Below, in pieces: positions 12,901-62,621 of a stretch of DNA of 64,000 nt. This DNA is from Acidimicrobiales bacterium (GTDB taxonomy: Bacteria; Actinomycetota; Acidimicrobiia; Acidimicrobiales; CAIXPF01). The stretch lies in the NCBI GenBank assembly GCA_041394365.1, contig JAWKIM010000006.1, positions 470,590 through 534,589 of the forward strand. The letters run 5' to 3'. The first letter of the stretch is position 1. Every line of letters begins with the position of its first letter. The position numbers and the translations under genes were made by a program. Below the pieces are notes generated by a model. That model saw nothing but the letters and a program-made list of their open reading frames with translations, did no database searches and was not told where the DNA came from.

Positions 12901-12998
12901 GGAACCGGCTCGACGGTCGGCGCCTGCAACCGGCTCGACGGCGGTGCCCGCAACCGGCTCGACGGCGGTGCCCGCAACCGGCTCGACGGCGGTGCCCG
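12901..12998. repeat. 24-bp tandem repeat (CAACCGGCTCGACGGCGGTGCCCG), three perfect copies plus one degenerate copy, in the divergent larB / NTF2-like intergenic region.
   Basis: Read directly from the sequence. It lies between the larB start (about 12867, minus strand) and the NTF2-like ATG (13018, plus strand). Confidence 0.75.
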
Positions 12999-19717: not shown

Positions 19718-20769
19718 GTGATCGTCGAATCGTTGCTACCGCTGGGCAAGCTCGACCCGGGCCTCCGCGAGCCGGAGACCCCGCTCGACATCAGGGACTT
19801 CGCCCGCTTGGCGGCGGTGGCGGAGGAGGTCGGCCTCGGCGCCGTGCTGGTGGAGGAGACGAAGGACGACCCGTTCCAGCTGCTCGCGCTGGGGGCGACC
19901 ACCACGTCGCGGATCCAGCTCGGCACGTCGGTGGCGATGGCCTTCCCCCGCAGCCCCACCGCCACCGCGATGTCGGCGTGGTCGCTGCAGAAGGTGTCCA
20001 ACGGCCGGTTCCTGCTGGGCCTGGGCACCCAGGTGCGGGCCCACATCGAGCGCCGGTACGGGCTGCCGTGGTCGGCGCCGGCGCCGTGGATCCGTGACTA
20101 CGTGGGGGCCATGCGGGCGGTGTGGGACTGCTGGCAGCACGGCACGCCGCTGCAGTTCGAGAGCGAGCACTACACGCTCAACCTGATGGTCCCGCTGTTC
20201 AACCCGGGCCCGATCGAGCACCCGCGCATCCCGGTGCACCTGGCCGCCATCGGCCCCAACATGTGCGCGGTGGCGGGGAGTTGGCCGATGGTGTGCGGCT
20301 GCACCCGGTGTGCTCCGCCAAGTTCATCGACACCGAGGTGCTGCCCGCTCTGGTCCGGGGCGCGGCGCGTACCGGTCGGGATGTCGACGAGGTCGAGATC
20401 TGCATGAAGCCGCTGATCGGCACGGCGCCGGACGCGGCGACGTTGGAGAAGGTGGTCCGCACCGTGCGGGCCCGGGTGGCGTTCTACCTGTCGACCCCGT
20501 CCTACCGGCGGGCGTTCGCGGTGCACGGGTGGGAGTCGATCGCCGAGCGGGCGTCGGTGCTGTCACGGGCGCAGCGGTGGGAGGAGCTGCCCGGGCTGGT
20601 GGACGACGAGCTGCTGCACACGATCGCCACCGTCGGCACCTACGACGAGATCGCGGGCAAGCTCAACGAGCGCTACGCCGGCCGGGTGCACCGCATCGAG
20701 TTCTCGATCCCGGTCAACAGCGAGCAGGACGCCGAGGCGTTCCGCTCGATCCTGGCGCAGCTGCGCTGA
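19718..20769 (+). CDS. LLM-class F420-dependent oxidoreductase (luciferase-like monooxygenase family); one frameshift at about 20285 (G-run).
   Basis: The ORFs 19718–20407 and 20122–20769 join as …AIGPNMCAVAGELADGVRLHPV… when one G is added. Luciferase-like TIM-barrel sequence throughout. Confidence 0.8.
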
Positions 20770-20850
20770 CCCACCCGGTCGGCGCTGGCCGACGTTCGGT
20801 TCGCCCGGCCGACGTTCGGTTCGGCCCGGCCGACCACCGGGCCAACCCTT

Positions 20851-21011
20851 CGCGGGCGATTCGATCTCGATTCGCCGTTCTCGACCGGCGTGGAGCAGCC
20901 GCCCACAGACGGTGGTCGTTGCTGACCCCACGGGTGTGCTGCCACGCGCCGGGTGCCCGATCTTTGTGTCTCACGACCGGTTCCGAATCGACGTCGAATC
21001 GAGCGCGACGG
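20851..21011. repeat. Palindromic MITE-like repeat, copy 1 (arms CGATTCGATCTCGATTCG … CGAATCGACGTCGAATCG).
   Basis: The inverted 18-bp arms, each containing TCGACGTCGA, are separated by about 110 bp. They lie between the convergent LLM and SDR genes, and homologous copies occur at about 27.1 kb and 50.8 kb. Confidence 0.8.
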
Positions 21012-21171
21012 TTTCCCGGGGACCCCCGGGTCTCGGCGCCCGATGCGGCCGAGCACCCGTCGGTCGGCTGCGCCACGGCGCCGCTACGGTGTTGGTGGTG
21101 CCGCAATCGATCGCCAACAGAGCCCCGGCCATCGGGCCGTTGCTAGCACAGCCCGGACGGCGCAGGCCGGG

Positions 21172-22107
21172 TCAGGCGGGCCGCAGGTCGATGCCGGTCA
21201 ACGCCCGGTAGCGCTCGAGGAACTCCGCAGTGGGCGCCGACCACAGCTCCTGCCAGGCGTCGTCGCCCAGCCGTTCCCGCAGCTCGATCATGGCCCGGCA
21301 GCCCTGGCCCACCGGACGTTGGCGCGCGCCGGGCGCGCCGCCGGTCACCGCCTCGCGCACCGCGGCGGCCACCTCGTCGGCGATCAACGACGGGTCCGAC
21401 GCCCGGGCGTGGTCGTAGCCGAGGGCGAAGCCCCAGTTCTTGGCGCTCTCCGGGTAGGGCGAGGTGCGCGGCGGCGGGGTGGTCTTCTGCTGGATCGGGG
21501 TGCGCACGGCACCCGGTTCGATGAGCACCACCCGCACGCCGAAGGGCCGGGCTTCCATGGCGAGCGCCTCGCTGGCCGCCTCGAGCGCGTACTTGGAGGC
21601 GCTGTAGGGCCCGAACATGGGCACGACCACCCGGCCGGCGATCGAGCTGATGTTGACGATGGTGCCGTGGCCCTGGGCGCGGAAGCGGGCCATCGCCGCC
21701 TGCATGCAGCGCACCGCGCCGAACAGGTTCGTCTCGAACAACGCCTTCCAACGGTCGATGCCGAACTCCTCGACCGAGCCCACCGGGCTGGTCCCGGCGT
21801 TGTTGACCAGCGCGTCGATCCGCTCGATGCCGTCGAAGGCGGCAGCCACCGAGGCGTCGTCGTCCACATCGAGCGCCACGATGCGCAGCGCCCTCGTCGA
21901 TCGAGCCGATCGTGCGGGACGCGGCCAGCAGGCCGGCGCCGTCGCGCTGCGGGTTGCGCATCCCCGCCACCACGTGCAGGCCGTCTTCGAGCAGGCGCAG
22001 CACGGTGGCGAAGCCGATCCGCTGGAGGTCCCGGTGACGAGCGCGGTGGCGGGTCGATCGGCGGCGGTGGGTGCTTCGGGCATGCGCGCATCCTCGCAGG
22101 AAGTCAT
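21172..22107 (-). CDS. SDR-family oxidoreductase; two frameshifts in the N-terminal region (about 21900 and about 21990).
   Basis: The cofactor motif TALVTGTSSGIG… is recovered across frames, and the catalytic YxxxK (YSASKYA) is present. Confidence 0.75.
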   Translation of the reverse strand: MTSCEDARMPEAPTAADRPATALVTGTSSGSASPPCCACSKTACTWWRGCATRSATAPACWPRPARSARSTRALRIVALDVDDDASVAAAFDGIERIDALVNNAGTSPVGSVEEFGIDRWKALFETNLFGAVRCMQAAMARFRAQGHGTIVNISSIAGRVVVPMFGPYSASKYALEAASEALAMEARPFGVRVVLIEPGAVRTPIQQKTTPPPRTSPYPESAKNWGFALGYDHARASDPSLIADEVAAAVREAVTGGAPGARQRPVGQGCRAMIELRERLGDDAWQELWSAPTAEFLERYRALTGIDLRPA

Positions 22108-24943: not shown

Positions 24944-25543
24944 GTGAACGCCTCGCCTGTCGCGCCGGGTGGTCGCAGGCACCTGCTGGGCATGGTCTGT
25001 TCTGCCCTGGGGGCGTGCGCGGCCACGACCGACGAAACCCTCGCCGTGTGCTGGTCGGTCGGGCAGGAACCGGCGGAGCGGCCGGTGGCCAGCCTCGTCG
25101 CCATGACGCCGTCCGAGGATCGCCCGGTTCTCGACGAGCTCGTGGGCCGCATGCAGACCGGGGCCGTGCACGTGCACCGAGCGGCGCCCTCGGGAGCCAC
25201 GTACTTCGCCTACGACGGCCGGTCCACCGACTTCGACCGCATCCTGTGGTACTGGCAGCCGGCGGCGGCGCGCGGCTCGCCGGCGAGCGCGCCGGGGGCC
25301 GTGGCCGCCGCGGCGGACAGCGAGCTGCTGGCATCGCTGACCGACCGCGAGCGCGCCGTGATCACCGCGATCCTGGCCGGCTCCAGGGTCAGCACCATCG
25401 CCCGGAGCCTCTTCCTCAGCCCCAGCACGGTCCGCAGCCACCTGAGCGCGGCGTTCAAGAAGCTCCAGGTCGGGTCGCAGGCGGAGTTGATCGAGCGATT
25501 CGGGGGCGCTGCTCGGTCGTTGGAGGGCCGAGCGAGCAGCTGA
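24944..25543 (+). CDS. LuxR-family transcriptional regulator (C-terminal HTH).
   Basis: The LuxR HTH is LTDRERAVITAILAGSRVSTIARSLFLSPSTVRSHLSAAFKKLQV. Confidence 0.75.
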   Translation: MNASPVAPGGRRHLLGMVCSALGACAATTDETLAVCWSVGQEPAERPVASLVAMTPSEDRPVLDELVGRMQTGAVHVHRAAPSGATYFAYDGRSTDFDRILWYWQPAAARGSPASAPGAVAAAADSELLASLTDRERAVITAILAGSRVSTIARSLFLSPSTVRSHLSAAFKKLQVGSQAELIERFGGAARSLEGRASS

Positions 25544-26113: not shown

Positions 26114-26440
26114 TCAGGTCTCGGGCGGCGGGTCGAGCCGGTAGCGCTCGACGAGCTCCGCCTGGGAGCGCACACCGAGCTTCTTGAAGGCCGCGCTCAG
26201 GTGGCTGCGCACGGTGCTCTCGCTCAGAACAGGCTGCGGCTGATCGTCTTGACCCGCCAACCGGCGAGCACGGGCCCACGACCGATCGCTCGCGGTCCGA
26301 GGTGGGCGAGCCGGGCTGCGGCTTCGGGCGTCGGCGCAGCGATGGCCCGAGGGGTCCGCAGCGGGAGCCTCTGCGTCGCCGGCGGGCTCGGCGGGCGGAG
26401 GTTGCCAGTACCAGACGATCTTGTTGAGCTCGGTGCCCCC
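26114..26440 (-). pseudogene. Truncated, frameshifted paralogue of the LuxR regulator (inverted partial duplication).
   Basis: …KIVWYWQ… and LSESTVRSHLSAAFKKLGVRSQAELVERY are about 80% identical at the nucleotide level to 25242–25543 on the other strand. The middle segment (TSDRERSVVG…) is in another frame. Confidence 0.6.
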
Positions 26441-26449
26441 GGAGGATCG

Positions 26450-28010
26450 CTGAGGCCCGGGTGACACTGACGTCGAGCAGGTTTCGCACGGTCGCGTTCG
26501 TGGCGCGGCCGTGTTCGGCCACAGGTGCGACGACCTTGCGGTCGATGTCGTAACCAGTGCGTCGGTGATAGCGCACGGCGGAGCCGAGTTGGGGTGAGGA
26601 CGGCGCTGCGAAGCCGATAGTCGAGCTGCGCGCGGTTGGCGCTCTGGCGCGTCGGCTCGAGCAGGTCGAACGGGGCGGCCGCCATCCGTGCGAGGACCGC
26701 CTGTGCGTCGGCGACCGGTCGCTGTGCGATCGGCGAGGGCCACGGCGTCGATCGGTCGGCGTTGCCAAAGCTCGCGCAGCGAGCAGGACGTCGGTCACGT
26801 CGGTGGCCGTTCAGCCCGTAGTCCCGTTGGACCAGCGCATTCGCGACCGCCTCGCGGACCGCGAGCTCCGGGAAGTCCGCGACGGTGATCTGCTGTCCTG
26901 AGCTCGGATCCACCGAGCCAGCCGTCGCACACCCCTGGACCGGGGCCCGCGCCCTTCTCGGTGCATGCCGGTCCGCCGGACTCCCGGGCCCGAACGCTCC
27001 GGCCGGCAGGCACCTGGCACCGTGCGCCTGCTGGGGCCGGCGCTCGCAGCCGGCCGGCAATCTGGGCCGTCCTTCAGCGGCGATTCGACGTCGATTCGAC
27101 GGCATCGACCGGCCGAGTTCGGCCAGCCACCGGTGGTGGCCTCACCCTCCGGTCGGGCTGCTCAGCCTCACCGATGGTGGCCGGACTTCGTGTCTCACGA
27201 CCAATTCCGAATCGACGTCGAATCGAGCGCGAAGGAGCCCGCCCATACCCCTCGGCATGTCGCCCACCCAGCCGCCAGAGCACGCCGGCGGTGAGCTGGA
27301 TCGAGAAGTCCGGCTCGGCCGACGATCTGACCCGGTGGACGTACACGAGTCGTGCGTCGTCACCCTGCGAGTCGGTCAGCAACAGCGCGCCGGCCCGGCG
27401 GAGCCGACCCTGGTCATCGAGCAGCTTCAGATTGCGCAGGAGCTCCGCCCCCGGCAGATCGGCGATCTCTCGGCCGGCCTCGGGCATGGCGCGAAGCCGA
27501 CGGCGCACGATGTCGATGGCAGCTGCGGAGACGTCGTCGAAACCGAGGTCCGTTGGCTCGGCCGTGATGTCCAGCCCTTGCCGGCTGGTGTAGAGCCGGT
27601 GCACCTCGACGGGACTCAGCGCCTTGCAGCCGGTGCCCATCCGCATCGTCACCCGTCCGGCGACCGAATAGACCTGCTGCCCCCGCGGGACGTCGAAGAC
27701 CATCAGGCGGACGTCGGCTGCCTCCGGCGGTCGGTACTCGGCGATGTCCACGACCAGGTTCGGGTTCGTGCGCTCGCAGATGCCCTTTCGCACGTCCATC
27801 ACGGACGCTGTTACGCCCCTGAGCGCGCCGATGCCACCGGGACGATCGGCGACACCGACGATCAGGTGCCCGCCATCTGCGTTGGCGAAGCACATGGCCG
27901 CCTCAGCGAGATCGGTCAGGGTTGCCGAGGTCGCGGGCGGTCTGCTTGAAGTCGAGTGTGGCCGACTCGAGGCTGTGCGCCGGCGAGCCCGTCGCGACGG
28001 CGTGCACGGC
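26450..28010 (-). pseudogene. AlbA_2 / HATPase_c_4-type putative transcriptional regulator, interrupted by palindromic repeat copy 2 and by frameshifts.
   Basis: The N-terminus MEVSDHIKL…ESATLDFKQ…LTDLAEAAMCFANADGGHLIVGVAD is an AlbA_2 domain. Downstream pieces are QQITVADFPELAVREAVANALVQRDY (HATPase_c_4) and GRATNATVRNLLDVSVTRASAILRG (C-terminal wHTH), in different frames. The repeat arms are translated inside the 346-aa ORF. Confidence 0.55.
27075..27234. repeat. Palindromic MITE-like repeat, copy 2, inserted within the AlbA_2 regulator gene.
   Basis: Arms CGATTCGACGTCGATTCG (27081–27098) and CGAATCGACGTCGAATCG (27208–27225). Confidence 0.8.
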
Positions 28011-28413
28011 CAGCTTGATGTGGTCCGATACTTCCATCGAGTTTTCCTGCACCCTCCACTCCCCAGATGGCAGGAAAACTCGGAGAAACCCCCTGCCGGG
28101 GGCGGCCGCGCCACCCTCGGCGGACGACGCTCGGCGCGGGAGTCTCTGGCTTGTCCCTCACAGGCCTATCGGCTGAGAGGGCGGGAGTAACCCCGGGAGT
28201 AACGAAGGCCGTCAGCTGCGACAGATCGACGACGCCCTTCGACTCGCCCTGGAACTCGACTGAGCCTGCGGTGCACATCGCACTCGAAACCGCCACCTCT
28301 ACCCGGCGTGGCGGAGGCGAGCGTCGGCGGGCTCCGGGTGTACCTGCCGTCGAGCACGATCCCAATCAGGCCCGGGTGCAGAACCGCAAGCGGCGCAACA
28401 ACCCCGCGATATC

Positions 28414-28640
28414 ATGATCGTTGTGACTGATATCCTGATCCGGGACGTGCCCGATGACGTCGTCGCCGCGCTCGGCGCGAACGCCCAACGCGCCGGTTTG
28501 GCGCGGGCAGAGTACCTCCGGCGGGTGCTGGCCGAGCAGCAAGGACCTCGGTCACCCGCGACCAACTCGATCGTTTCGCCGAGCGCACCGCCGATCTGGG
28601 CGATCCCGAGGTCATGGCCGCCGCGTGGCGGTGACCGGTT
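28414..28640 (+). pseudogene. RHH (FitA/VapB-like) antitoxin, frameshifted.
   Basis: MIVVTDILIRDVPDDVVAALGANAQRAGLARAEYLRRVLAE is the ribbon-helix-helix antitoxin pattern; the C-terminal part is lost to a frame change. Confidence 0.5.
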
Positions 28641-29024
28641 GGCTGATCGACAAGTCGGCGCTCACCCGTCTTGCGATGGCGAGTGGATAGTGGCTGTCGC
28701 GCATCCAGCGGCCTGGTGAGGATCTCGACCGTGACGTTGCTCGAGATCGGCTTCGACCCGCAACGGCATCGATCACCGCGCCACGCTGGGCGAGCCGCCG
28801 GTGTCGTCGATGCCCGTCGAGCACCTGGACCCCGCGATCGAAGCCCGTGCGGTCGAGCTTCAGATGTTGCTCGCCGATCAAGGTCAGCACCGCGCCCCGT
28901 CGATCCCCGATCTGCTCATCGCCGCAACTGCGGAAGCGGCGCGCTCGTGGTGCTGCACGTCGACAAGGACTTCGACCTCATCGCAGCGATCACCAACCAA
29001 CCGATCGAACGGCTCGACGTCTGA
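28640..29024 (+). pseudogene. VapC-type PIN-domain toxin, at least three frameshifts.
   Basis: [37 protein letters not shown] and [23 protein letters not shown] are in three different frames. Confidence 0.55.
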
Positions 29025-29159
29025 ACTGGGCGGGCACGGCCGCTCGACCTGACGTCCGTCGGAGGTCGCGGGTGGGTCAGCGACGGCACGCTGGCGGCGC
29101 GGAAGTTCCCTTGGACCTGGCGTTCGATCCGATCACAGTGGATGCGGCCCAGATGGGTA

Positions 29160-29480
29160 GGGTGCCGTGCGGGCGGCCTGCGGCCCGGTAGCTACGGCCG
29201 TGGCGATGGTGGCCGACGGGATGACCACGGCCGAGATCCTGGCCGAGCACCCCCGACCTGGAGGCCGAGGACGTGGCGCAATGCCTTCGCTATGCGGCAC
29301 CCGCCGTGGAGCGTGAGCTGCCGCCACGGCTGCCCGGAGTTCCTGCTCGATCAGAACCTCTCGCCGCTCGTCTCCGGCGTGTTGCAGGCGGCCGGTCATG
29401 ACGGTCCACGTGCGTGACCTCGACCTCGCCGCCGAAGGGCGCTGCGTGACGATCCTCGACGGATCTTTCCGAAGCTGAGT
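29160..29480 (+). pseudogene. Remnant of a DUF433 / DUF5615 gene pair (frameshifted, 3'-truncated).
   Basis: GMTTAEILAEHPDLEAEDVAQCLRYAA (DUF433-like) followed by LPEFLLDQNLSPLVSGVLQAAGHD (DUF5615-like N-terminus). Compare the intact pair at 47234–47847. Confidence 0.4.
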
Positions 29481-29739
29481 GGAAGATTGTACTGAACGTT
29501 GTTAGCTCGGTTGTCGACCGATCGCCGAGGGCGACAGCAGCATCTGACGTGACCTATCCGTCTGGTTGGAATGAGCGTATGTCGGCTACTTTGATGGACT
29601 GCCAGGCGGGAAATTGGAGCGGTCACGACGGGCTCCTCCGAATTGAATCGAGCGGATGTCGAGGTACTTCGAGACGTGGACCCGAAAATCGGGGTGCGAA
29701 CGAAGTCGTTCCTCGTGAATGTTGAGTTGGAAGGTCAAC

Positions 29740-30420
29740 TGCGTGGATCAACCCAGTTGATTCCCCTGCTTCTTGAGGCTGTCGCCGAGGAAGGCGCCCA
29801 GCCAGCGGCTTGTGTCAAAGTTCTGCGGCCCCTCTGAGTAGGGCGGTCCGTGAGCGCCGGGTCGAGGAGGCGGCTGGAGAGCTTGGGCGGTGGTTTGGGG
29901 GCGGTCGCCGGTGGCGGCACGTAGCCGTCACCGGCGCGAAGTCGTTCCTCGAAGCTCGCGGTGCGTCGTCGGCGCAGTAGCTCGACCACGACGGGCGTGA
30001 GGTGGTGGCGGCCGATGGCGCCGTCGGTCTTCACGGGCCCAGCACCATGCCGACCCCGTCGGCGTAGGCGCAGCCCTGCCGCACCTCGGCCACGCCGCTA
30101 TCGAGATCGACGTCGCCCCACGCTAGGCCGAGAACCTCCGACACCCGCCAGCCCTGGATGAACAGCAACGCCACCGCCACGCCCAGCCGATCCGGCGCAG
30201 CGTCGGCCACCAGCGCCTTCGCCGGCCGATAGGGCCCGTCGACTCGTGCGCGGCGTGCGCGGTGTGCGCAGTGCGCGGCGGGCGGAGCTTTGACACCGGG
30301 TTGGCGGCGATCAGGCTCGAGGGCGACGGCCTCCTCGAACGACCCGTCCGCCGCAGGCGCCGCTGTCCTTCGCCGCCCGTACGATGGGCGCTCAGAGTAC
30401 TCCCAGCCGGGAGTAACCGG
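29740..30420 (-). pseudogene. Tyrosine recombinase/integrase fragment (frameshifted, catalytic C-terminal part missing).
   Basis: The minus-strand translation gives …IAANPVSKLRPP…RARVDGPYRPAKALVADAAPDRLGVAVALLFIQGWRVSEVLGLAWGDVDLDSG…VKTDGAIGRHHLTPVVVELLRRRR, the integrase SAM-like and early catalytic-domain pattern. There is an internal stop/frameshift near 30035, and the region 3' of about 29740 is low-GC non-coding. Confidence 0.55.
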
Positions 30421-30541
30421 GAGTAATGGCGGGAGGAACGCCCCCGGCGCCGTCGAACACGCCGCGACGCGAGCCGGACGTTTTCCTGGTCAGAGTGCTA
30501 CGGGCCGATACCAGGCAACACGGCCGGCACGCAAAAGCCCT

Positions 30542-30632
30542 GCTGGCGGAACGGGGGGGATTCGAACCCCCGGGGCCTTTCGGCCCGGCCGCTTTCAAGG
30601 CGGCTGCATTCGTCCGCTCTGCCACCGTTCCG
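30542..30632 (-). tRNA. tRNA-Ser (anticodon TGA) with a long variable arm. The 3' end lies adjacent to the integrase remnant.
   Basis: Manual fold: acceptor GGCGGAA/TTCCGCC, anticodon stem GCCGC/GCGGC with loop CTTGAAA, long extra arm, T-loop GGGGGTTCGAATCCCCC. One extra C in the T-stem/acceptor junction makes the exact ends uncertain. Confidence 0.7.
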
Positions 30633-30714: not shown

Positions 30715-32852
30715 TCACGATGTCAACCGTTCAGTTGAGGGCGGGCGGCGCCGGCGGTGGCGGCACCGCCGGCCCGTTCCCGCTGTCGCACCGGCGCCGC
30801 CAACGCCGGCCGAGCCCACCAGCGAGCCGTGCAGCAGGTTCCGCACCAGCGTCGCCGCCAGGCCGTCCACACTGCCCCCGCCGCCGGTGACCAGCACCTC
30901 GGGCACCACGGTGATCTTGCCGTCGGCGATGGCGTTGGCCACCGCCACCAGCGCCGTGGCCACCTCGCCCAACGCCTGCTTCTGGGCTTCGAAGCCTTCC
31001 GCCTTGGCCAGTCCCAAGGCCTCCGTCGCCTTGGCCTCGGCCAGGCCGACCGCCTCGGTGCGGCTGGCCTCGGCGGCGCCGATGGCCTCCACCTTCACGG
31101 CCTCGGCCCGGCCGACGGACTCGATGCGCGCCGCCTCGGCCCGGCCCATCACCTCCACCCGGGTGGCCTCCGCTCGGGCGGTGGTCTCCACGTAGGCGGC
31201 CTCGCCCCGTGCCGCCTCGGCCCGAGCGTTGGCCTGGTTGTGGTTGATCTCCACCGACACCTGCGCCGATGCCAGCTGGCCTTGCATCTCAGCGGTACCG
31301 CAGGCCTTCTCCATCTCGATGCGCGCCGTCTGGGCCGTTGCTGCTCCTCGAACGTTGCCTTCTCCTGCTTGGCCACCTCCGCTGCGTCAACACCTGCACC
31401 AAGCTCCACAGGGAACTCGACGTCCTGGATGTACACGCCCTTGGTCTCCACCTCGTAGGCGTCGAGGTAGCGGCTGATGGCGGCGAACGCCGACTCCTGC
31501 ACCGCCGTCCTCGTCTCGATGAAGCGCACCGCCTCCAGCGCCTGGAGCGTGTTGCGGAAGTGGTTGCCCACCGCCGACTGCAGCACCTCGTTCACCAGGT
31601 TCTGCATGGTGCCGACCATCGAGATGACCTTCGGCGCCCAGGTGTCGGGCGCGTGGATCTGCACCTGCAGGTCGATCCGGAAGATGAAGCCCTCCCGGCT
31701 CTTGCCCTCGATCGGCGAGAGCTGGGCGTCGAGGTTGTGGGCCTGGGACACGGCGGTGGCCCAGTTGAGGGTGAGGATCGAGGTGGGCACGATCTCCGCC
31801 GCGTAGCAGCGCGGGTTGATCGGATACTTCCCGGTACGCAGCGGCTCCTGCCAGATGCCGCGGTGGCCCGGCCGTACGATCGACCCGAACTTGAACTCGG
31901 CGCCGGAGGTGTCCAGCGTCGGTAGACCGACGAAGGATTTCACCACCGCCACCTCGCCCTGGCGCACCACGAGCATGGGCACCAGCTCCACCCGCACCAG
32001 GAACGGGTTCAGCAGGTACGCGCCATACAGCAGCGGGTCGTGCTGCAGACCGATGCGCCCGCCGCCGTCGAGGAAGCGCTGGAAGTCCTGGTAGTTGTTG
32101 TGCTGCTCGTTCTTGTTGCCCAGCAGCACCTCGATGACCTCGGCGTCGGCTGCGCCGGCCTCCTCCATGCCGACGACGTCGTTGTAGCCACCCAGCCGGC
32201 TGGCGATGTCGCCCGAGGGCAACGGCTCGCCCTCCAGCGCGGTGACCACGCCCACCACATCGGTGTTGCCCTGCGGGGCGATGACCACCACCCGAAGGTG
32301 CTCGGGGCTCAACCCGAAGTCCTGCGGCGACAGCTCACCGTCCTGACCCACCGCCATGTCCGCACCGATCGGTACGCCGTAGACGGCATGGGCGGTGAGC
32401 ACCAGGAACGCGACCGGGTGGATGGGCAGCAGCGTGCCCGGCGTCAGCACCGGCCGCTGCACACCCTTCTGCCCGCCGTTGGCGAGGAAGGAGGCGACGT
32501 CGCCGAAGTTGCCGAAGGACGGGTGGTACACCGCGCTCTTGGCGCCGATGGGCAGCGGCGCACCCACCTGGGCGATGACCACGCCGATCTCGCCGGCGGG
32601 GATCTGCACCCACGGGTGCTTGCGCACCCGGTAGACGGGCCACAGCTTGAAGCGCAGGCCGGGCATGAGCAGATCGGCCTGGTAACCGGCCTCGCCGCGG
32701 AAGGCGATCGGGTCACCCGACGCCAGCCGCCGCCGGGCGAGCCGCTTGTTGACGAGGCCCAGCTCCGCCGGGCCGATGGAGTGCAGCGAGCGCAACGCGA
32801 CCACGGCGGCGACCGCCAGCGCGAACGCAGGAACGATGAACAGAGCCGGCAT
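30715..32852 (-). CDS. Flotillin / SPFH (band-7) family protein (YqiK-like); frameshift at about 31300–31350.
   Basis: An N-terminal TM is followed by an SPFH domain and an Ala/Glu-rich coiled-coil tail. The ORFs 31149–32852 and 30715–31314 join at …VAKQEKATFEEQQR / …MEKACGTAEMQ…. Confidence 0.75.
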
Positions 32853-43806: not shown

Positions 43807-43880
43807 GCGCTCGTAGCTCAATTGGATAGAGCATCTGACTACGGATCAGAAGGTTGGGGGTTCGAGTCCCTCCGAGCGCG
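43807..43880 (+). tRNA. tRNA-Arg (anticodon ACG).
   Basis: Manual fold: acceptor GCGCTCG/CGAGCGC, D-arm GCTCAATTGGATAGAGC, anticodon stem TCTGA/TCAGA with loop CTACGGA, T-arm GGGGGTTCGAGTCCCTC. Confidence 0.9.
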
Positions 43881-44095
43881 CAGATCAAGCCCAGGTCAGA
43901 GTGGGTGTTCCTCGACCTGTGCTCGCTCGTGTTCGGGGTGGCATCTGACCCACGCTGGCTGATTGCGCCCAACTCCCAACGGCTTGGCGAAATCGAGGTC
44001 CAACGTGAACTCCTCCAACGTCAGGTCGCGCTTCCCGAAGGTGACTGGCGGGCGTAGCCCGGCAGGGCGAAGCGCCGGTGGCGTGGCCACTGTCG

Positions 44096-45476
44096 TCAGT
44101 CCCGCCACGGCATGGTGTTGAACGACACGAGGACGCGGGCGCGGTCAGCCGTGAGGTAGCTCTCGAGGGAGCCGGGCGGCGTGGCGGTGCTCCACATGGT
44201 CGAGCCGGTTGCCGTGTCCAGCGCAGAGAGGCGCCCGCCGCCGAGGAGGAAGGAGCGGTGTCCTTCGATCGCCTGGGGTGCGCCGAGGTAGTTGCCCGGA
44301 TCGATGGGCTGCTCCCAGCGCACCGCGCCGCTGCGCAGGTCGTAGGCCGTCGTACGCCCCGCAGCGTCGGTGCCCACGGTGGTGATGACGATGCCGTCCC
44401 CAACCGGCCAGAGATCGCCGTAGGTTGGGGCACCGGCCGCGGTCCACAGCGTCGTTCCGTCGTCGGCGTCGAGTGCTTGCAGCACGGGCCGGCGCATCGG
44501 AGGCAGGCTCACCGGAGCGTCGATGGTGGGTGGCGGGGACGCTTCGTAGATGTAGCCGACGACGGTTCCGTCCGCCGCCGCAGGATGATGCAGCACCGGG
44601 GCCCGCCACCGCTCCGTTCCGTCCTCGGTGTCGATCGCAACCGACAGGTAGGTGATCGTCGGAGGGAGCGAGCCGGGCGGGTGGAGCCCGGGTTCGGGTG
44701 TCTCGATGGTGGGCAGCACGATCATCGTCGATGTGTCGCTGGTGGCGACGGCGCTGGTGGCTCGCGACACGCCCACCTGCGAGGAATCGACGATCGTGAA
44801 CGGAATGGTCCAGCGTGTTGTTCCAGTGCGGCGGTCGAGCCCGGTGACGGTGTGGTCGGTGGCGAGGATCGTCATGTCCTCGGTGTTGGCGATCGGGCCC
44901 AGGGTGCCACTCGTGCCGGGGATGCTCGCCGGATCGACGCGCCAACGTTCGGCGCCCGTGGTGGCGTCGACGCCGATGATCGTGGTTGTGCCGCCGGTGT
45001 CGATGGGCAGCACGACGATGTCGCCGGCCGCGATCGGTCCCGGTGGCCGTCCCCACAGCCCGAACGAACCACCTCCAGCCAGCTCGCGCTCTCCACAACT
45101 CGCTACCGCTGCTGGCAAGCAGGGCGACGGCGTCGTGCTGCTGCGCCGGTGGGTTTCCGGTGGTGTCCTCGGTCAGCGAGGTCAGGAGCACGATCTGCGG
45201 CGAGGAGCCGACGATCTCCCGCCACGCCAACTCGGCGGAGCAGTACCACCAGGCCGGTTCCCCTCGGTCGAGCGAGTAGCTCGCCAGGGCCGGCGACGTG
45301 CCCGGGGCACACGACGAAGCCAGGCTGGTCAACGTCGGGGCGGGGCCGGTCGTCGACGAAGGCACGGCCGCGTCGGCGGTTGTGGTGGTCCCCGCCTCTC
45401 GAGTCGGCTGGCTTCCCCGCAGCCGGTCAGGGCCATGGCCACGACGAGCACCGATGTCCACGTTCGCACGGCGTTC
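44096..45476 (-). pseudogene. PQQ-like beta-propeller lipoprotein (BamB-like), at least two frameshifts.
   Basis: Lipoprotein signal MNAVRTWTSVLVVAMALTGCG at about 45476, then propeller repeats (…TGAERWR…, …DGTTLWT…, …SGAVRWEQ…) spread over two or three frames. Confidence 0.6.
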
Positions 45477-47237: not shown

Positions 47238-47473
47238 CCGATGAGCTGCTGGCACGGATCGTGGTCGATCCGCAGATCTGTTTCGGGAAGCCGACGGTGC
47301 GCGGGCATCGGATCTGGGTTTCGCTGGTGCTCGGGTACCTGGCGGAGGGCTGGTCGGTCGAGCAGATCGTGGAGGAGTTCCCGGGTCTGGAGCCTCTCGA
47401 TGTTCGAGCGTGTGTCGCGTACGGGGCTCGGCTGGCCGACGTCCGTTTCGTTGACCTCGACGATGTGGCGTGA
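47234..47473 (+). CDS. DUF433-domain protein (putative antitoxin of a DUF433/DUF5615 pair).
   Basis: 79 aa, …RHSGRSPRNELCY… no; the diagnostic stretch is VDPQICFGKPTVRGHRIWVSLVLGYLAEGWSVEQIVEEF. It overlaps the next gene by 4 nt (ATGA). Confidence 0.75.
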   Translation: MTDELLARIVVDPQICFGKPTVRGHRIWVSLVLGYLAEGWSVEQIVEEFPGLEPLDVRACVAYGARLADVRFVDLDDVA

Positions 47474-47847
47474 GGTTCAAGCTCGACGAGAACCTCGGTC
47501 GGAGCGCGCTCGAAGCCTTCCGCAACGCCGGCCACGATGTCTCGAGCGTTGTGCTGCAGCACCTCGCCGGCGCGACGGATCAGCGGGTGCTCGCCGTCTG
47601 CGAGGTGGAGGGCCGTGTGCTCGTCACGTTGGACCTCGACTTCGCCAACCCGCTCCACCACGATCCTCGCGGCACGCCCGGCGTCGCGGTGCTGCGCCTA
47701 CCGGCGAACGCCGGCCCTTCTGATGTCGGGCGTGCGATCGAGACCCTGCTGGACGCGGTCGCCGCCCATGACATCGGGGGGTCGCTGTGGATCGTTCGCG
47801 CCGACCGCGTCCGGGTCTGGCAACCCACCTCGACCGACGGCGCGTGA
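47470..47847 (+). CDS. DUF5615-domain protein (PIN-like, putative toxin partner).
   Basis: MRFKLDENLGRSALEAFRNAGHDV… Mut7-C/PIN-like fold. It is translationally coupled to the DUF433 gene. Confidence 0.75.
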   Translation: MRFKLDENLGRSALEAFRNAGHDVSSVVLQHLAGATDQRVLAVCEVEGRVLVTLDLDFANPLHHDPRGTPGVAVLRLPANAGPSDVGRAIETLLDAVAAHDIGGSLWIVRADRVRVWQPTSTDGA

Positions 47848-48142: not shown

Positions 48143-48184
48143 CTACGGATCAGAAGGTTGGGGTTCGAGTCCCTCCGAGCGCGC
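48143..48184 (+). repeat. 42-bp direct repeat of the tRNA-Arg 3' end (att-like island boundary).
   Basis: CTACGGATCAGAAGGTTGGGGTTCGAGTCCCTCCGAGCGCGC compared with tRNA positions 43839–43881. It differs only by a single G in the GGGGG run. Confidence 0.85.
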
Positions 48185-48289
48185 TGAGGACGACCAGGTG
48201 CAAGGCCCTTTCCTTCGGGGGAGGGCCTTCGTCGTTGACGGCCTCAACGGCGATGCCGGGTTGGTGCCGGTGGGTGGGATCATGGCCGG

Positions 48290-50716
48290 ATGGAGGGCCC
48301 GGGAACCGCCGAGCAGCACGAGTTGGCGCGGCTGCGCGAGGAGCTCGAGGCCTCTCGGCGCGACCTGCAGGCGGCGCAGGCGGAGATCGATCGGCTCCGG
48401 GGCTTGCTCGGCTTGGATCGCCCGGTACCCGAGGGGCCGGGCGACGGCCGGCTGTTCGTGCCCGATGCGCCGCCGACCGACGACGCTGACCCCGTCGCTC
48501 ACGCCGCCGCGGCCGGCAATGCCCCGGCCGGCGCTGCGGTGTCCCGGTCTTCGCCGCCCGGGGAGAAGTTGGCGTTGTTCCGCCGCCTGTTCGCCGCTCG
48601 CACCGATGTGTTCGCCCTGCGATGGGAGAACCGTTCGACGGGCAAGGCCGGGTGGATGCCGGCTCGCAACGGGGGCCGGGATGGGCCGTTGCGTCCCCTC
48701 ACCGAGGAGGTGCTGCGGGCCCATCTCGAGGGCCGAGACCACGTGGGCGTGTACCCGCTGCGCCACGGCGACGTGTGCACGGTGCTGGCGTGCGACTTCG
48801 ACGGCGCCTCGTGGGCGTTGGACGCCCGGGCCTTCCACGATGCGGCCATCGCCGCCGGTCTGCAGCCGCTGCTCGAACGCTCCCGTTCCGGTCAGGGTGC
48901 GCACGTCTGGCTGTGCTTCTCCCAGCCCGTTCCGGCCGCCTCGGCACGACGGTTGGGGGCCGGGCTGCTGCGTCGGGCCATGGATGAACGCGTCGAGCTC
49001 GATCTGGCGTCCTACGACCGGTTGTTCCCCTCGCAGGACCAGCTGCCCCGCCAGGGTTTCGGGAACCTGATCGCGCTGCCGTTGCAGGGCGAGTGCCGGC
49101 GCCGGGGCACGACGGTGTTCCTCGACCCGACCACGTTGGAACCGTTCGAAGACCAGTGGGCGGTGCTCGGTGCGGTCCGGCCGGCCGATCGGTCGACCGT
49201 GGAGCGGCTCGCCGACCAGCTCGACCCGTTCGAGCGCCCGGCCCGGCAACGTCCGCCTTTCGCCCGTGCGCCGGTGCCTTCGGTGGTGCGGGCCGAGCTC
49301 GGGGCCGGGGTCTCCTTCGATCGGATCGGGCTGCCGGCGTGGTTGGTGGCCGAGCTCAAGCATGCGGCCTCGCTGCCGAACGGCAGGTTCTTCGAGAAGC
49401 AGCGCCTGCGGTTCTCCACCTGGGACACGCCGAGGGTGATCCGCAGCTACCGGGAGTCGCTCGACCGGCTGGAGATACCGCGCGGTCTGCTCGAGCGGGC
49501 GCGCGGCATCGTCGAGGGTGCCGGTGCCGCGCTCGAGCTGTCCGACCGCCGCGTCATCGTGGAACCGTTCACCTTCCGGTTCGACGGGACGCTGCGGGCC
49601 GAGCAGCAGGCGGCCGTGGCGGCGCTGGCGGGTCACGACCACGGGATGCTCATCGCCCCGCCGGGCACCGGCAAGACCGTGATCGGCTGCGCCCTCATCG
49701 CCGCCCACCAGACGCCGACGTTGGTGTTGGTGGACCGTCGCCCGCTGGCGGAACAATGGCGGGAACGGCTCGGTATGTTCCTCGGCCTGCAGGCGCGCCA
49801 GATCGGCCAGAGCGGTGGCGGGCGCAGCCGACTGAGCGGCATCGTCGACATCGCCCTGCTGCAGTCGCTGGCCCGCCAACCCGACCGGGCCCTCGAGCTG
49901 TTCGGTCGCTACGGGCTGGTGATCGTCGACGAGTGCCACCACGCGCCGGCGGCCAGCTACGAGCCCATCCTGGCCGCCGCCACCACCCGCCGGTGGATCG
50001 GCCTGACCGCCACGCCGTTCCGGGCCGACCGCCTGGACCCGCTGATCGCCTTCTACTGCGGGCCCATCCGCCACGAGATCCCGGCGGAGAGCACGCCGAG
50101 CGCGTCGCTGCCGCGGCAGCTGCACGTGCACACCACCGAGCTGCACCTCGACGAGGACACCCCGCACATCCAGGACGTGTTCCGTGCCCTCGCCCACGAC
50201 GACGCCCGCAACCGTCTGATCGTCGAGCACCTGACCTCGCTGGCCCGGGAGGCACGGAAGGTCCTGGTGCTCTCCCAACGCAAGGACCACCTCGAAGCGC
50301 TCGCCGCCCTGCTCGACGCCGAGGGCCTCGATCCGGTCCTCCTCGTCGGTGGGCAGGGACGCAAGCTCAGCCGTGCCGTGATCGACGAGCTCGGCGAACG
50401 GGTCCGCGGCGCCGATGGGGTGCTGGCGCTGGCCACGGGCAGCTACCTGGGCGAGGGCTTCGACCTGCCGGGCCTCGACACGCTCGTACTCGCCTTCCCG
50501 GTGTCGTTCAAGGGTCGGATCATCCAGTACGTCGGCCGGCTGTTGCGCCCCGACCCCGCCAAGACCGACATCGTCGTGCACGACTACCACGACCCGCACG
50601 TAGCGGTGCTCGTGGCGATGGCCCGCAAACGGCTGGCCGCCTACCGGCAGCTCGGCTTCGTCACCCCCGCCCACCTGCCCGCCGTCCCGCCCAGCCGACC
50701 GGACGACGCCTTCTGA
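48290..50716 (+). CDS. Archaeo-eukaryotic primase (PrimPol-like) – SF2 DEAH-box helicase fusion protein with an N-terminal coiled coil.
   Basis: AEP motifs (GVYPL; TVLACDFDGASW = DxD; GAHVWLCF = sxH; FGNLIALPLQG), then Walker A PPGTGKT, DECH (VIVDECHH) and the helicase C-terminal domain. The ORF is intact at 808 aa. Confidence 0.8.
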   Translation: MEGPGTAEQHELARLREELEASRRDLQAAQAEIDRLRGLLGLDRPVPEGPGDGRLFVPDAPPTDDADPVAHAAAAGNAPAGAAVSRSSPPGEKLALFRRLFAARTDVFALRWENRSTGKAGWMPARNGGRDGPLRPLTEEVLRAHLEGRDHVGVYPLRHGDVCTVLACDFDGASWALDARAFHDAAIAAGLQPLLERSRSGQGAHVWLCFSQPVPAASARRLGAGLLRRAMDERVELDLASYDRLFPSQDQLPRQGFGNLIALPLQGECRRRGTTVFLDPTTLEPFEDQWAVLGAVRPADRSTVERLADQLDPFERPARQRPPFARAPVPSVVRAELGAGVSFDRIGLPAWLVAELKHAASLPNGRFFEKQRLRFSTWDTPRVIRSYRESLDRLEIPRGLLERARGIVEGAGAALELSDRRVIVEPFTFRFDGTLRAEQQAAVAALAGHDHGMLIAPPGTGKTVIGCALIAAHQTPTLVLVDRRPLAEQWRERLGMFLGLQARQIGQSGGGRSRLSGIVDIALLQSLARQPDRALELFGRYGLVIVDECHHAPAASYEPILAAATTRRWIGLTATPFRADRLDPLIAFYCGPIRHEIPAESTPSASLPRQLHVHTTELHLDEDTPHIQDVFRALAHDDARNRLIVEHLTSLAREARKVLVLSQRKDHLEALAALLDAEGLDPVLLVGGQGRKLSRAVIDELGERVRGADGVLALATGSYLGEGFDLPGLDTLVLAFPVSFKGRIIQYVGRLLRPDPAKTDIVVHDYHDPHVAVLVAMARKRLAAYRQLGFVTPAHLPAVPPSRPDDAF

Positions 50717-50802
50717 TCGGAGCCCGCCCGCGCGACCGATCGTGTCGCGGGCTGGGAGATGCGGTCGGCCGATCGACCACGGGCGACTCCGGTGGGGGCT
50801 CT

Positions 50803-50964
50803 CCGGCGTCCTTCGCGGTCGATTCGACGTCGATTCGCCTTGGTCGACCGGGGCGGGCGAGTCGGCCCCGTTCCGTGGCCGCCCGTGACCCCGGGGGCCC
50901 GGAGCGTCGCCTGACGTGCTGTGATGTTGTGTGTGGCGACCAATTCCGAATCGAGCTCGAATCG
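50803..50964. repeat. Palindromic MITE-like repeat, copy 3, between the PrimPol-helicase and the HelD-like genes.
   Basis: Arms CGATTCGACGTCGATTCG (50810–50827) and CGAATCGAGCTCGAATCG (50937–50954). Confidence 0.8.
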
Positions 50965-51176
50965 AGCGCGACGGATTTCCCACACACCCTGCCGAACCAG
51001 GGCACAGGACCGAGGAGACCAGCCCGTCTGCAGGGACCGAGCCGGCCAGCCCGTCGGCGGAGACCGAGCCGGCGCACCACGCGGCTCGCAGCGACGACCC
51101 GGGCCGGGCGGACCGCGCCCCGCGGCCTAGATTCGCGACGGTCCCGGCGCCCGGTCGGCGACCACCCCGAGGTGTG

Positions 51177-61530: not shown

Positions 61531-61597
61531 CGGGTCTTCCTTCGGGTTACGGCGCATGGATCGGGTCGGGTTCGAGATCGGGTCAGGGTCTCGCCGC

Positions 61598-62320: not shown

Positions 62321-62621
62321 ACGTGCTCCTGGGGTGGGCGCTCGGGGCGAGCGGGGTGGGCGGCGTGGGTCGGGTGAGCGGGGTGATGGCGATCAACTCG
62401 GCGTTGATCGATGCCAGGAACGCCACGAGGCCGTGTAGGTGGGCGGCGTCGCGGATCGTGCCGGTGAGGCGGGTGTCACCGGTGTCGTCCCAGCCGACGT
62501 TGAAGTCGTCGAGGAACGGACCGAGCAGGTGGCGGCCGAGCCGTCCCCGGATCACGAGCTCGTGGGTGTGTTCATCGGGCATGGCGGTACCGTCGCACCG
62601 CACCGGGTGAACGGGCTTCAC
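62316..62621 (-). CDS. Small hypothetical protein upstream of the ABC exporter.
   Basis: High GC3 ORF with an MPDEHTHELVIRGRLG… start at about 62582; no recognised domain. Confidence 0.35.
   Translation of the reverse strand: MKPVHPVRCDGTAMPDEHTHELVIRGRLGRHLLGPFLDDFNVGWDDTGDTRLTGTIRDAAHLHGLVAFLASINAELIAITPLTRPTPPTPLAPSAHPRSTS

What the first reader, a model, noticed from the sequence alone, without database searches (positions are those of the whole stretch)
27075..27234. Repeat copy 2 sits inside an AlbA_2-type regulator gene
The AlbA_2 N-terminal domain lies upstream of the repeat, at about 28010→27250 on the minus strand. The HATPase_c_4 segment (…AVREAVANALVQRDY…) and the C-terminal wHTH lie downstream, at about 26900→26460. 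The long ORF is translated straight through both repeat arms (…RSIRRRFGIGRETRS…AVESTSNRR). This is either a repeat insertion that inactivated the gene or an in-gene structured element tolerated as a linker.
Basis: partly seen in the sequence, partly recalled or inferred. Interest (0 to 1): 0.6.

Follow-up and report, generated by a model that had tools for sequence, protein, structure and literature searches.

The report
Palindromic repeat inside a dead gene
A copy of an undescribed non-coding palindromic repeat, normally found between genes, has replaced 66 bases in the middle of an AlbA_2/HATPase_c_4 gene that is now a multiply broken pseudogene; this is an ordinary kind of event, though the repeat family has some unusual features.

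Summary
A palindromic repeat core of about 167 nt (27070-27236) lies inside a minus-strand AlbA_2-type gene, and an ORF runs through both arms. It is not a linker. An intact 592-aa orthologue in a related MAG (P0018/L017) is contiguous across this point. 112 of 117 full-length homologues have exactly 51 residues there. In the window, 66 nt (22 codons) are replaced by 376 nt (26902-27277). This shifts the frame, and a stop follows the second arm. There is no target-site duplication, only a 4-nt microhomology. The gene has further lesions: an early frameshift, a ~317-nt deletion that removes the whole Pfam HATPase_c_4 domain, later frameshifts and a lost C-terminus. Two sister MAG assemblies share the insert and the main lesions. 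The repeat belongs to a dispersed family: 3 copies in the window and 8 in metagenome contigs, the others mostly lying just after gene ends. Its 18-nt arms are nearly invariant, each made of two 11-bp direct repeats, and are always separated by exactly 109 nt of poorly conserved sequence. I found no coding signal, no conserved interior RNA fold, and no Rfam, phage, plasmid or literature match. The best reading is a REPIN/MITE-like interspersed repeat inserted in a recently dead gene. The mobilising protein is unknown.

The parts
27924..28037 (-). AlbA_2/HATPase_c_4 pseudogene, residues 1-38 (frame -3). A frameshift follows at about 27920.
   Evidence: tblastn of the intact orthologue P0018. The same frameshift is present in sister MAGs L015/L016.
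27278..27919 (-). Pseudogene residues 41-254, including the AlbA_2 domain. 88% aa identity to P0018.
   Evidence: dN/dS about 0.14 against the orthologue.
26902..27277 (+). 376-nt foreign segment (long form of the repeat unit). It replaces 66 nt (22 codons, EVAERAMDLVRVRRRERNLLLA) of the gene.
   Evidence: Junction alignment to the empty site in L017. Homology of 26898-27276 to L003, L010, L013 and L014 in unrelated contexts.
26902..26918 (+). Terminal hairpin module GCTCGG-ATCCA-CCGAGC at the left end of the insert. The adjacent TCAG (26898-26901) is shared with the gene as a microhomology.
   Evidence: L010 has a compensated version, GCCCGG-ATCCA-CCGGGC, placed right after a stop codon.
27070..27098 (+). 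Left inverted repeat. It contains the invariant 18-nt arm (27081-27098), made of two tandem 11-bp units.
27099..27182 (+). Poorly conserved interior. About 49% identity between family representatives, with no indels in 11 copies.
   Evidence: No conserved RNA pairs and no coding periodicity.
27183..27207 (+). Conserved asymmetric box GGAyTTCGTGTCyCACGACCAATTC next to the right arm.
27208..27236 (+). Right inverted repeat. It contains the invariant 18-nt arm (27208-27225).
27237..27277 (+). Semi-conserved tail (GCCCGCCCATACCCCTCGGCATGTCGCCCACCCAGCCGCCAG) shared with long-form copies.
27074..27076 (-). Stop codon that ends the ORF crossing the repeat. This ORF is annotated in NCBI as a 273-aa 'helix-turn-helix domain-containing protein', P0001.
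26803..26904 (-). Pseudogene residues 276-309 (…SGQQITVADFPELAVREAVANALVQRDY…), in frame -2.
26796..26802 (-). Breakpoint of a ~317-nt deletion that removes residues ~310-416, i.e. the whole Pfam HATPase_c_4 domain.
26440..26736 (-). Remnants of the C-terminal wHTH region (residues 439-485 in frame -2, 487-~540 in frame -3). The C-terminus is lost at a 447-nt deletion at 26438/26439.
20846..21012 (+). Repeat copy 1 (core). It lies between the convergent luciferase-like oxidoreductase gene (ends 20769) and the SDR gene (21172-22107, minus strand).
   Evidence: Also present in the short-read contig L018.
50809..50975 (+). Repeat copy 3 (core). It lies between the TOTE-type AEP-helicase gene (48290-50716) and a UvrD-like gene.

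Best explanation
Copy 2 belongs to a dispersed, non-coding palindromic repeat family of this Acidimicrobiia lineage. The family resembles REPINs and MITEs. The copy sits inside a gene that is now a pseudogene.

Shown:
- A discrete 376-nt unit occupies the place of 66 nt in the length-invariant helix region between the AlbA_2 part and the HATPase_c_4 part of a 592-aa COG2865-type protein. The unit consists of a hairpin module, a GC-rich module, a 167-nt core with two invariant inverted arms, and a tail.
- The net +310 nt shifts the frame, and the crossing ORF stops just after the second arm. The insert cannot be a translated linker.
- The gene also has an early frameshift, a ~317-nt deletion of the ATPase-like domain, later frameshifts and a truncated C-terminus.

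Inferred:
- The family spreads, or is kept, through a trans-acting protein that reads the arms. Each arm is two 11-bp direct repeats. The two arms are inverted and always 127 bp apart start to start, about 12 helical turns. This would explain why the arms and the spacing are invariant while the interior drifts.
- Copy 2 arrived as a whole unit, because its left end is the same as in L003 and L010. The arrival also deleted 66 nt and left no target-site duplication.
- Inactivation is recent relative to the split from the relative that carries the intact gene.
For: - Empty site and lesion map against the intact, syntenic orthologue.
- 112 of 117 homologues have exactly 51 residues across the junction.
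- Frame and stop.
- The same insert, frameshift and 317-nt deletion occur in two other MAG assemblies.
- Family: 3 window copies against 0 expected, plus 8 further GC-rich copies in genome and metagenome contigs.
- Gap-free 169-column alignment with arms 93-96% identical and interior 49% identical.
- The long form is shared with L003, L010, L013 and L014 in unrelated flanks.
- The other copies lie mostly just downstream of stop codons or between convergent genes.
- No 3-periodicity, and stop codons in every frame in at least one copy.
- No conserved interior pairing.
- No Rfam match.
- dN/dS about 0.14 with dS about 0.5.
Against: - No transposase, RAYT or other candidate mobilising gene was found. 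None appears among the strong Pfam hits in the window.
- No empty/filled polymorphism of the same site between close strains was seen.
- The lack of a TSD and the 66-nt target loss are not the signature of classical cut-and-paste or copy-paste transposition.
- Only 11 copies were available, so unit boundaries (especially the right end) and genome-wide copy number are uncertain.
- The interior is not self-complementary, unlike the hairpin-forming spacers described for REPINs (PMC3116915).
- The window appears to contain small indel differences from short-read contigs. The small frameshifts therefore count as evidence only where sister assemblies share them.
Confidence: 0.72

Rival explanations
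1. The 376-nt segment was not inserted by an element-specific mechanism. It was copied or captured from another intergenic locus during error-prone double-strand-break repair or illegitimate (microhomology) recombination. It replaced 66 nt of a gene that lies in a rearrangement-prone region.
For: - No TSD, a 66-nt target loss, and a 4-nt TCAG microhomology at one junction.
- The same gene has two further deletions (~317 and 447 nt), and its neighbourhood has an inverted LuxR duplication.
- The segment looks like a typical mosaic intergenic stretch, including a hairpin that elsewhere directly follows stop codons.
Against: - The left end of the segment coincides to within a few bases with the point where homology starts in L003 and L010, whose flanks are unrelated. 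This favours a discrete unit.
- The family is dispersed over many loci with invariant arms.
Confidence: 0.3
2. The repeat is a host-functional DNA or RNA element, such as a protein-binding architectural site, an insulator or terminator between genes, or a small RNA. On this view it is not a selfish mobile element, and copy 2 is an accidental ectopic copy.
For: - Strict conservation of the arms, of the 109-nt spacing and of an asymmetric box across copies whose interiors are about 50% diverged.
- Typical position after gene ends or between convergent genes.
- Strong arm-arm hairpin, z about -6.5 on both strands.
Against: - No covariation; the arms never vary and the interior fold is not conserved.
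- No promoter- or terminator-like consensus and no Rfam family.
- A copy inside a dead gene, antisense to it, serves no obvious host purpose.
- Absent from 21.8 kb of the related genome L017.
Confidence: 0.25
3. The repeat is a natural, translated or structured in-gene linker between the AlbA_2 and HATPase_c_4 parts of a functional regulator.
For: An ORF is open through both arms. NCBI annotates a 273-aa CDS across it.
Against: - Stop codon directly after the second arm, and the downstream gene part in another frame.
- 116 of 117 full-length homologues have 50-52 residues across this segment, and none shows an insert.
- The orthologue is intact without it.
- The ATPase-like domain is deleted and the C-terminus is lost.
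- All six frames show stops in some copy of the repeat, and there is no codon periodicity.
Confidence: 0.02
4. The junctions are an assembly artefact, i.e. a repeat-induced chimera in a MAG contig.
For: - Repeats break short-read contigs; L018 ends inside copy 1.
- The window shows small indel differences from short-read contigs.
Against: - The identical insert and both junctions are present in contigs of two other MAG assemblies, with gene sequence on both sides.
- Both flanks belong to the same orthologous gene, in the right order and orientation.
Confidence: 0.03

Closest known systems
[quoted passage not shown]
   Same: - Two short, highly conserved sequences in inverted orientation, each with its own palindromic core (TCGACGTCGA).
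- The two are separated by a less conserved spacer at a family-specific fixed distance. SBW25 REPINs use 71 or 110 bp; here the distance is 109 nt between arms.
- Dispersed mainly in extragenic space.
- Mosaic association with other small intergenic motifs, as in BIMEs.
- No TSD.
   Different: - A different phylum (an Acidimicrobiia MAG).
- The arms are two tandem 11-bp units rather than a GTAG-type REP.
- The spacer is not self-complementary.
- No RAYT gene could be looked for genome-wide.
- Copy number is unknown.
- An asymmetric conserved box lies next to one arm only.
MITEs with terminal inverted repeats (e.g. Neisseria Correia elements, enterobacterial ERIC/IRU)
   Same: - Size of 150-400 bp, non-coding, with inverted repeats of about 29 nt (83% complementary in copy 2).
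- Multiple dispersed copies, with occasional insertion into genes.
   Different: - No target-site duplication at the one site where the empty state is known.
- Conservation continues outside the inverted repeats.
- The interior is far more diverged than in typical recently amplified MITE families, yet never changes length.
- No parent IS with matching ends was found.
COG2865-type AlbA_2 (PF04326) + HATPase_c_4 (PF13749) + C-terminal wHTH proteins, often annotated 'ATP-dependent DNA helicase RecG' or 'putative DNA-binding domain-containing protein'
   Same: The disrupted gene is an orthologue of P0018: 88% aa identity over residues 41-254, next to the same tRNA-Ser.
   Different: The window copy lacks the PF13749 domain, has shifted frames and has lost its C-terminus. 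It is a pseudogene, not a member with a novel linker.

Membership tests
REPIN / REP | Two conserved REP sequences in inverted orientation at a family-specific fixed distance | tested here: met
REPIN / REP | The whole unit, spacer included, forms a hairpin in ssDNA or RNA | tested here: not met
   Only the arms pair. Interior complementarity in the palindromic register is 0.25-0.43, close to the level expected for random sequence of this G+C content. MFE interior folds differ between copies.
REPIN / REP | Predominantly extragenic, many copies per genome | tested here: inconclusive
   10 of 11 copies lie outside recognisable genes. There are 3 copies per 64 kb in the window, but no whole-genome census was possible.
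REPIN / REP | A cognate single-copy RAYT (Y1 transposase) flanked by REPINs in the same genome | not testable with these tools
   Only 64 kb of the genome is available. No transposase-like family appears among the strong Pfam hits in the window.
MITE (TIR-type, DDE-transposase dependent) | Terminal inverted repeats at the very ends of the unit | tested here: not met
   Homology between copies extends about 170 nt to the left and about 45 nt to the right of the inverted repeats.
MITE (TIR-type, DDE-transposase dependent) | Target-site duplication flanking the insertion | tested here: not met
   Comparison with the empty site in L017 shows no duplication, a loss of 66 nt, and only a 4-nt microhomology.
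AlbA_2 + HATPase_c_4 (COG2865-type) protein | PF04326 domain present | tested here: met
   E=1.6e-8, 35.5 bits against a cutoff of 25.3.
AlbA_2 + HATPase_c_4 (COG2865-type) protein | PF13749 domain present, with a continuous reading frame of about 570-600 aa | tested here: not met
   No PF13749 hit in any window fragment. The domain (P0018 residues 309-392) falls within the ~317-nt deletion. The remnants are spread over three reading frames, with at least four changes of frame.
Known structured RNA (Rfam 15) | Match to a covariance model at the gathering score | tested here: not met
   Only tRNAs in the window. The best hit in 26800-27400 has E=0.68, far below gathering.

The most novel reading that the evidence does not exclude
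The family is not a conventional MITE or REPIN. It may be a new type of protein-organised DNA site in Acidimicrobiia. Two inverted pairs of 11-bp iterons are held exactly 12 helical turns apart, next to an asymmetric box, and the interior is free to vary. A dedicated recombinase or architectural protein that requires this geometry would maintain and copy the site. Insertion into the AlbA_2 gene would be a by-product of its activity.
Probability: 0.15. Interest if true: 0.6.

Novelty: new member of a known kind. Interest (0 to 1): 0.3.

Why it matters
For the finding itself, the gain is mainly in annotation. The 273-aa 'helix-turn-helix domain-containing protein' called in NCBI MAGs is the front part of a dead COG2865-type gene fused to 61 repeat-encoded residues. 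It should be marked as a pseudogene.

The repeat family is the more interesting by-product. It is an undescribed interspersed element in a poorly studied actinobacterial class. It combines near-invariant double-iteron arms, an exactly fixed spacer length and a freely drifting interior. If its mobilising or binding protein were identified, it would extend REPIN/RAYT-like biology, or a new analogue of it, beyond Proteobacteria. It would also give a marker for strain typing and for assembly breaks in these MAGs.

Tried and rejected
- **Coding potential of the repeat.** Variation by codon phase is 34/32/40, and every frame has a stop in at least one copy. Rejected.
- **Conserved RNA structure.** RNAalifold finds only the invariant arms and three tiny helices, with 1 compensatory pair. 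Per-copy MFE interiors differ. Rejected for the interior.
- **Rfam.** Nothing at gathering score or at E<=10.
- **Promoter and terminator consensus scan.** None found.
- **Viral contigs** (2 patterns), **plasmid and phage collections.** No match.
- **Literature search** for the arm sequence. No paper found.
- **nhmmer with the family profile.** No extra or degenerate copies in the window, and none in the 21.8-kb orthologous region L017.
- **L002 as a second empty site.** The gene is truncated before the junction, so it is not usable.
- **L005, L007, L008 and L011** from the metagenome scan. L005 is a simple repeat, L007 and L008 are AT-richer ORF-free contigs, and L011 is a different GC-rich element. 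None is a member of this family.
- **Strain-level empty sites for copy 1, via the SDR gene.** Exact look-ups failed. L018 shows copy 1 present. The more distant L020 has a different downstream gene.
- **A gene start at the conserved ATGGCGCCC in the tail.** It is not in frame with downstream genes. Rejected.
- **Self-splicing intron or intein reading.** No Rfam intron match, the insert is 376 nt, its boundaries lack intron consensus, and the frame is not restored. Not pursued further.

Full report
**Source and setting.** The window has 71.5% G+C. The ORF that crosses the repeat is 100% identical to an NCBI protein from a 'MAG: Acidimicrobiia bacterium' on a 558-kb contig. The same protein and locus occur in two further MAG assemblies: GCA_050186215.1 (L015) and GCA_050176135.1 (L016).

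**Is the repeat real?**
- The repeat finder reports three copies in register, at about 20826-21011, 27050-27235 and 50789-50974.
- The paired-arm pattern CGATTCGANNTCGATTCG-N(95-125)-CGAATCGANNTCGAATCG matches exactly three times, always on the + strand and always with 109 nt between the arms. It matches 0 times in 100 dinucleotide-preserving shuffles. Single arms with up to 2 mismatches occur nowhere else in the window.
- In copy 2 the inverted repeat extends to 29 nt (27070-27098 / 27208-27236, 83% complementary). Each arm consists of two tandem 11-bp units.

**The gene around it.**
- Pfam finds AlbA_2 (PF04326) in the ORF 27074..28114(-), but finds no HATPase_c_4 in any downstream fragment.
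- A search with a reconstructed homologue returned more than 120 full-length proteins of 570-600 aa with the PF04326+PF13749 architecture. Among them is P0018 (592 aa), from a related MAG (GCA_022842355.1, locus L017).
- L017 is syntenic with the window. The same tRNA-Ser lies next to the gene, and several neighbouring genes match at 78-85% nucleotide identity.
- tblastn of P0018 against the window gives this lesion map:

| P0018 residues | Window coordinates | Frame / state |
|---|---|---|
| 1-38 | 28037-27924 | frame -3 |
| 39-40 | | frameshift |
| 41-254 | 27919-27278 | frame -1, 88% identity |
| 255-275 | | missing (replaced by the insert) |
| 276-309 | 26904-26803 | frame -2 |
| about 310-416 | | deleted (~317 nt) |
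| 439-485 | 26736-26596 | frame -2 |
| 487-~540 | 26591-26440 | frame -3 |
| C-terminus | | lost |

- In P0018 the Pfam HATPase_c_4 hit covers residues 309-392. The whole Pfam-defined domain is therefore gone from the window.
- L015 and L016 are identical to the window across the N-terminal part, the early frameshift and the repeat, and they share the 317-nt deletion. They differ downstream by two 2-nt indels and retain 447 nt that the window has lost at 26438/26439.
- The major lesions are thus reproducible across assemblies. The window does differ from short-read contigs of the same species by small indels elsewhere: 3 gaps in 2224 nt against L018. I therefore rely only on lesions that are shared between assemblies or are large.

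**The junctions.** I aligned the empty site of L017 to the window.
- Gene homology runs up to the Leu254 codon (27280-27278) and resumes at TCAGG (26901 downward).
- The 66 nt between these points in L017 encode EVAERAMDLVRVRRRERNLLLA. In the window, 376 nt (27277-26902) take their place.
- The net +310 nt shifts the frame by one, which agrees with the observed frames.
- There is no target-site duplication. The only shared bases are TCAG at the downstream junction.
- In an alignment of 117 full-length homologues, the segment corresponding to P0018 residues 240-290 has exactly 51 residues in 112 and 50-52 in 116. This is a length-invariant structured segment, not a variable linker.
- The ORF crossing the repeat stops at 27076-27074.
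- Together these results refute the 'tolerated linker' reading.

**Age of the inactivation.** For the surviving pieces, dN/dS against the orthologue is about 0.14 at dS about 0.5. Most of the divergence therefore accrued under purifying selection, and the inactivation is recent relative to the split of the two lineages.

**What the inserted segment is.**
- One scan of species-representative genomes and one of metagenome contigs with the paired-arm pattern gave one and eleven loci respectively. Eight of these twelve belong to the same GC-rich family: L003, L004, L006, L009, L010, L012, L013 and L014.
- Together with the three window copies, they align without a single gap over 169 columns.
- Mean pairwise identity among seven divergent representatives, by region:

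| Region | Identity |
|---|---|
| Arms | 93-96% |
| 12 nt outside the right arm | 82% |
| Asymmetric box next to the right arm (GGAyTTCGTGTCyCACGACCAATTC) | 72% |
| 84-nt interior | 49% |

- Copy 2 is closest to copies on other contigs: 88-89% identity to L010 and L013, and about 80% over about 380 nt to L003 and L014. It is only about 70% identical to copies 1 and 3 in its own genome.
- Homology to L003 spans window 26898-27276, almost exactly the foreign segment in the gene. The flanks of L003, L010, L013 and L014 are unrelated to the window and to each other.
- The left end is a small hairpin, GCTCGG-ATCCA-CCGAGC. L010 has a compensated version (GCCCGG…CCGGGC) directly after the stop codon of a cytochrome-c-like gene. 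A related motif occurs twice after a stop codon in L009.
- The unit is therefore modular: hairpin, GC-rich module, core and tail. This is reminiscent of mosaic intergenic elements.

**Where the other copies sit.**
- Copy 1 lies between the convergent luciferase-like oxidoreductase and SDR genes.
- Copy 3 lies between a TOTE-type AEP-helicase gene and a UvrD-like gene.
- The metagenomic copies mostly lie 75-190 nt after a stop codon, several of them between convergent genes.
- Copy 2 is the only one found inside a recognisable gene, and it is antisense to that gene.

**What the repeat is not.**
- *Not coding.* Variable columns are spread 34/32/40 over the three phases, and every frame contains stops in at least one copy.
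- *Not a structured RNA with a conserved fold.* RNAalifold recovers only the invariant arms and three 3-4-bp helices, with a covariation term of +0.11 kcal/mol. Per-copy MFE structures share nothing beyond the arm stem. The interior is not self-complementary, at 0.25-0.43 in the palindromic register. The arm-arm hairpin itself is very stable, with z about -6.5 on both strands.
- *No database match.* No Rfam family matches. No promoter- or terminator-like consensus is present. Viral contigs, phage records and plasmid records hold nothing similar. The arm sequence is not in the searchable literature.
- *No mobilising gene seen.* No transposase- or integrase-type family is among the strong Pfam hits of 71 window ORFs or of the genes next to the copies.

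**Interpretation.**
- The conservation pattern is best explained by sequence-specific recognition of the arms by a protein that needs a fixed geometry. The arms are near-invariant and each is built from two 11-bp direct repeats. They are inverted and sit 127 bp apart start to start, about 12 helical turns. The spacer drifts in sequence but never changes length.
- The closest described entities are REPINs: inverted REP doublets at family-specific distances, 71 and 110 bp in P. fluorescens SBW25, extragenic and mobilised in trans by RAYTs (PMC3116915).
- The family meets the 'inverted doublet at a fixed distance' feature, and apparently the 'extragenic' feature. It fails the 'whole unit forms a hairpin' feature. 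The RAYT association could not be tested.
- It fails two defining features of TIR-type MITEs. There is no TSD, and homology extends beyond the inverted repeats.
- I therefore describe it as REPIN/MITE-like in how it probably works, without filing it as a member of either.

**How copy 2 arrived.** Two routes remain open.
- The shared left end favours movement as a discrete unit.
- The 66-nt target loss, the microhomology and the deletion-prone neighbourhood are equally compatible with capture of a copy during error-prone break repair.
- Which lesion killed the gene first cannot be told.

**Verdict.** The linker reading is refuted, and the gene is a pseudogene. A repeat landing in a decaying gene is ordinary. 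The repeat family is undescribed and has an unusual architecture of fixed length and variable interior, which gives the finding modest residual interest.

Noticed in passing
window 43807-43896 and 48143-48199: The 3' end of tRNA-Arg(ACG) is duplicated about 4.3 kb downstream (40 nt, 88% identity). This looks like att repeats bracketing a small integrated island that holds a PQQ-like beta-propeller gene (44096-45172, minus strand) and a DUF5615 gene (47455-47847). In the relative L017 a Phage_integrase gene sits beside the matching tRNA fragment.
   Followed up: partly
window 48290-53316: A TOTE conflict-system gene with AEP primase and ResIII/DEAD helicase domains (PF22548, E=3.6e-71) is followed by repeat copy 3. 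After that comes a UvrD-like gene that is split in two (51171-52826 / 52798-53316).
   Followed up: partly
window 24944-25543 (+) and 26114-26440 (-): Two LuxR/GerE-family paralogues lie in inverted orientation (90-nt arms, 78% complementary). The minus-strand copy is a remnant that has lost 447 nt relative to sister MAG L015 and now abuts the truncated end of the AlbA_2 pseudogene.
   Followed up: partly
window 28414-30631: A FitA-like RHH + PIN toxin-antitoxin pair and a DUF5615 gene lie between tRNA-Ser(TGA) and the AlbA_2 pseudogene. In the relative L017 the tRNA directly abuts the intact gene, so this ~2.5-kb block is an insertion or a variable segment.
   Followed up: partly
window 19718-20769; 21172-22107; 30715-32852; 60697-62621: Several genes appear split by frameshifts. 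Against a short-read contig of the same species (L018), the window shows 3 indels in 2224 nt, and its SDR protein is only 85% identical. This suggests small indel errors in the window's assembly, or ongoing decay.
   Followed up: partly
L009 ~1465-1520; L010 ~1395-1420; window 26895-26918: A small hairpin motif, TGAGCnCGGATCCnCCGnGnC, recurs immediately after stop codons (twice in tandem in L009) and forms the left end of the copy-2 insert. It may be a separate short intergenic repeat of this lineage.
   Followed up: no
window 20790-20835: A tandem duplication of GGCCGACGTTCGGTTCG lies just left of repeat copy 1. Similar CCGAACG/CGTTCGG motifs occur in the flanks of other copies.
   Followed up: no
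window 12918-12998: Three tandem units of a 24-nt repeat (94% identity), apparently within a coding region (family D6).
   Followed up: no
L007 1935-2117; L008 634-814: AT-richer contigs with no ORF above 100 aa carry ~185-bp elements with the same arm motif embedded in a longer, near-perfect TIR (GGyTACAACTrCGATTCGACTTCGATTCG). They are probably an unrelated, possibly eukaryotic, MITE family picked up by the pattern.
   Followed up: partly
L011 2589-2745: A GC-rich element from another metagenome has the same 18-nt arms but a 140-nt unit. Its interior holds three further CGATTCGG units spaced 11 bp apart. This hints that 11-bp-phased GATTCG iterons are a recurring binding motif.
   Followed up: no
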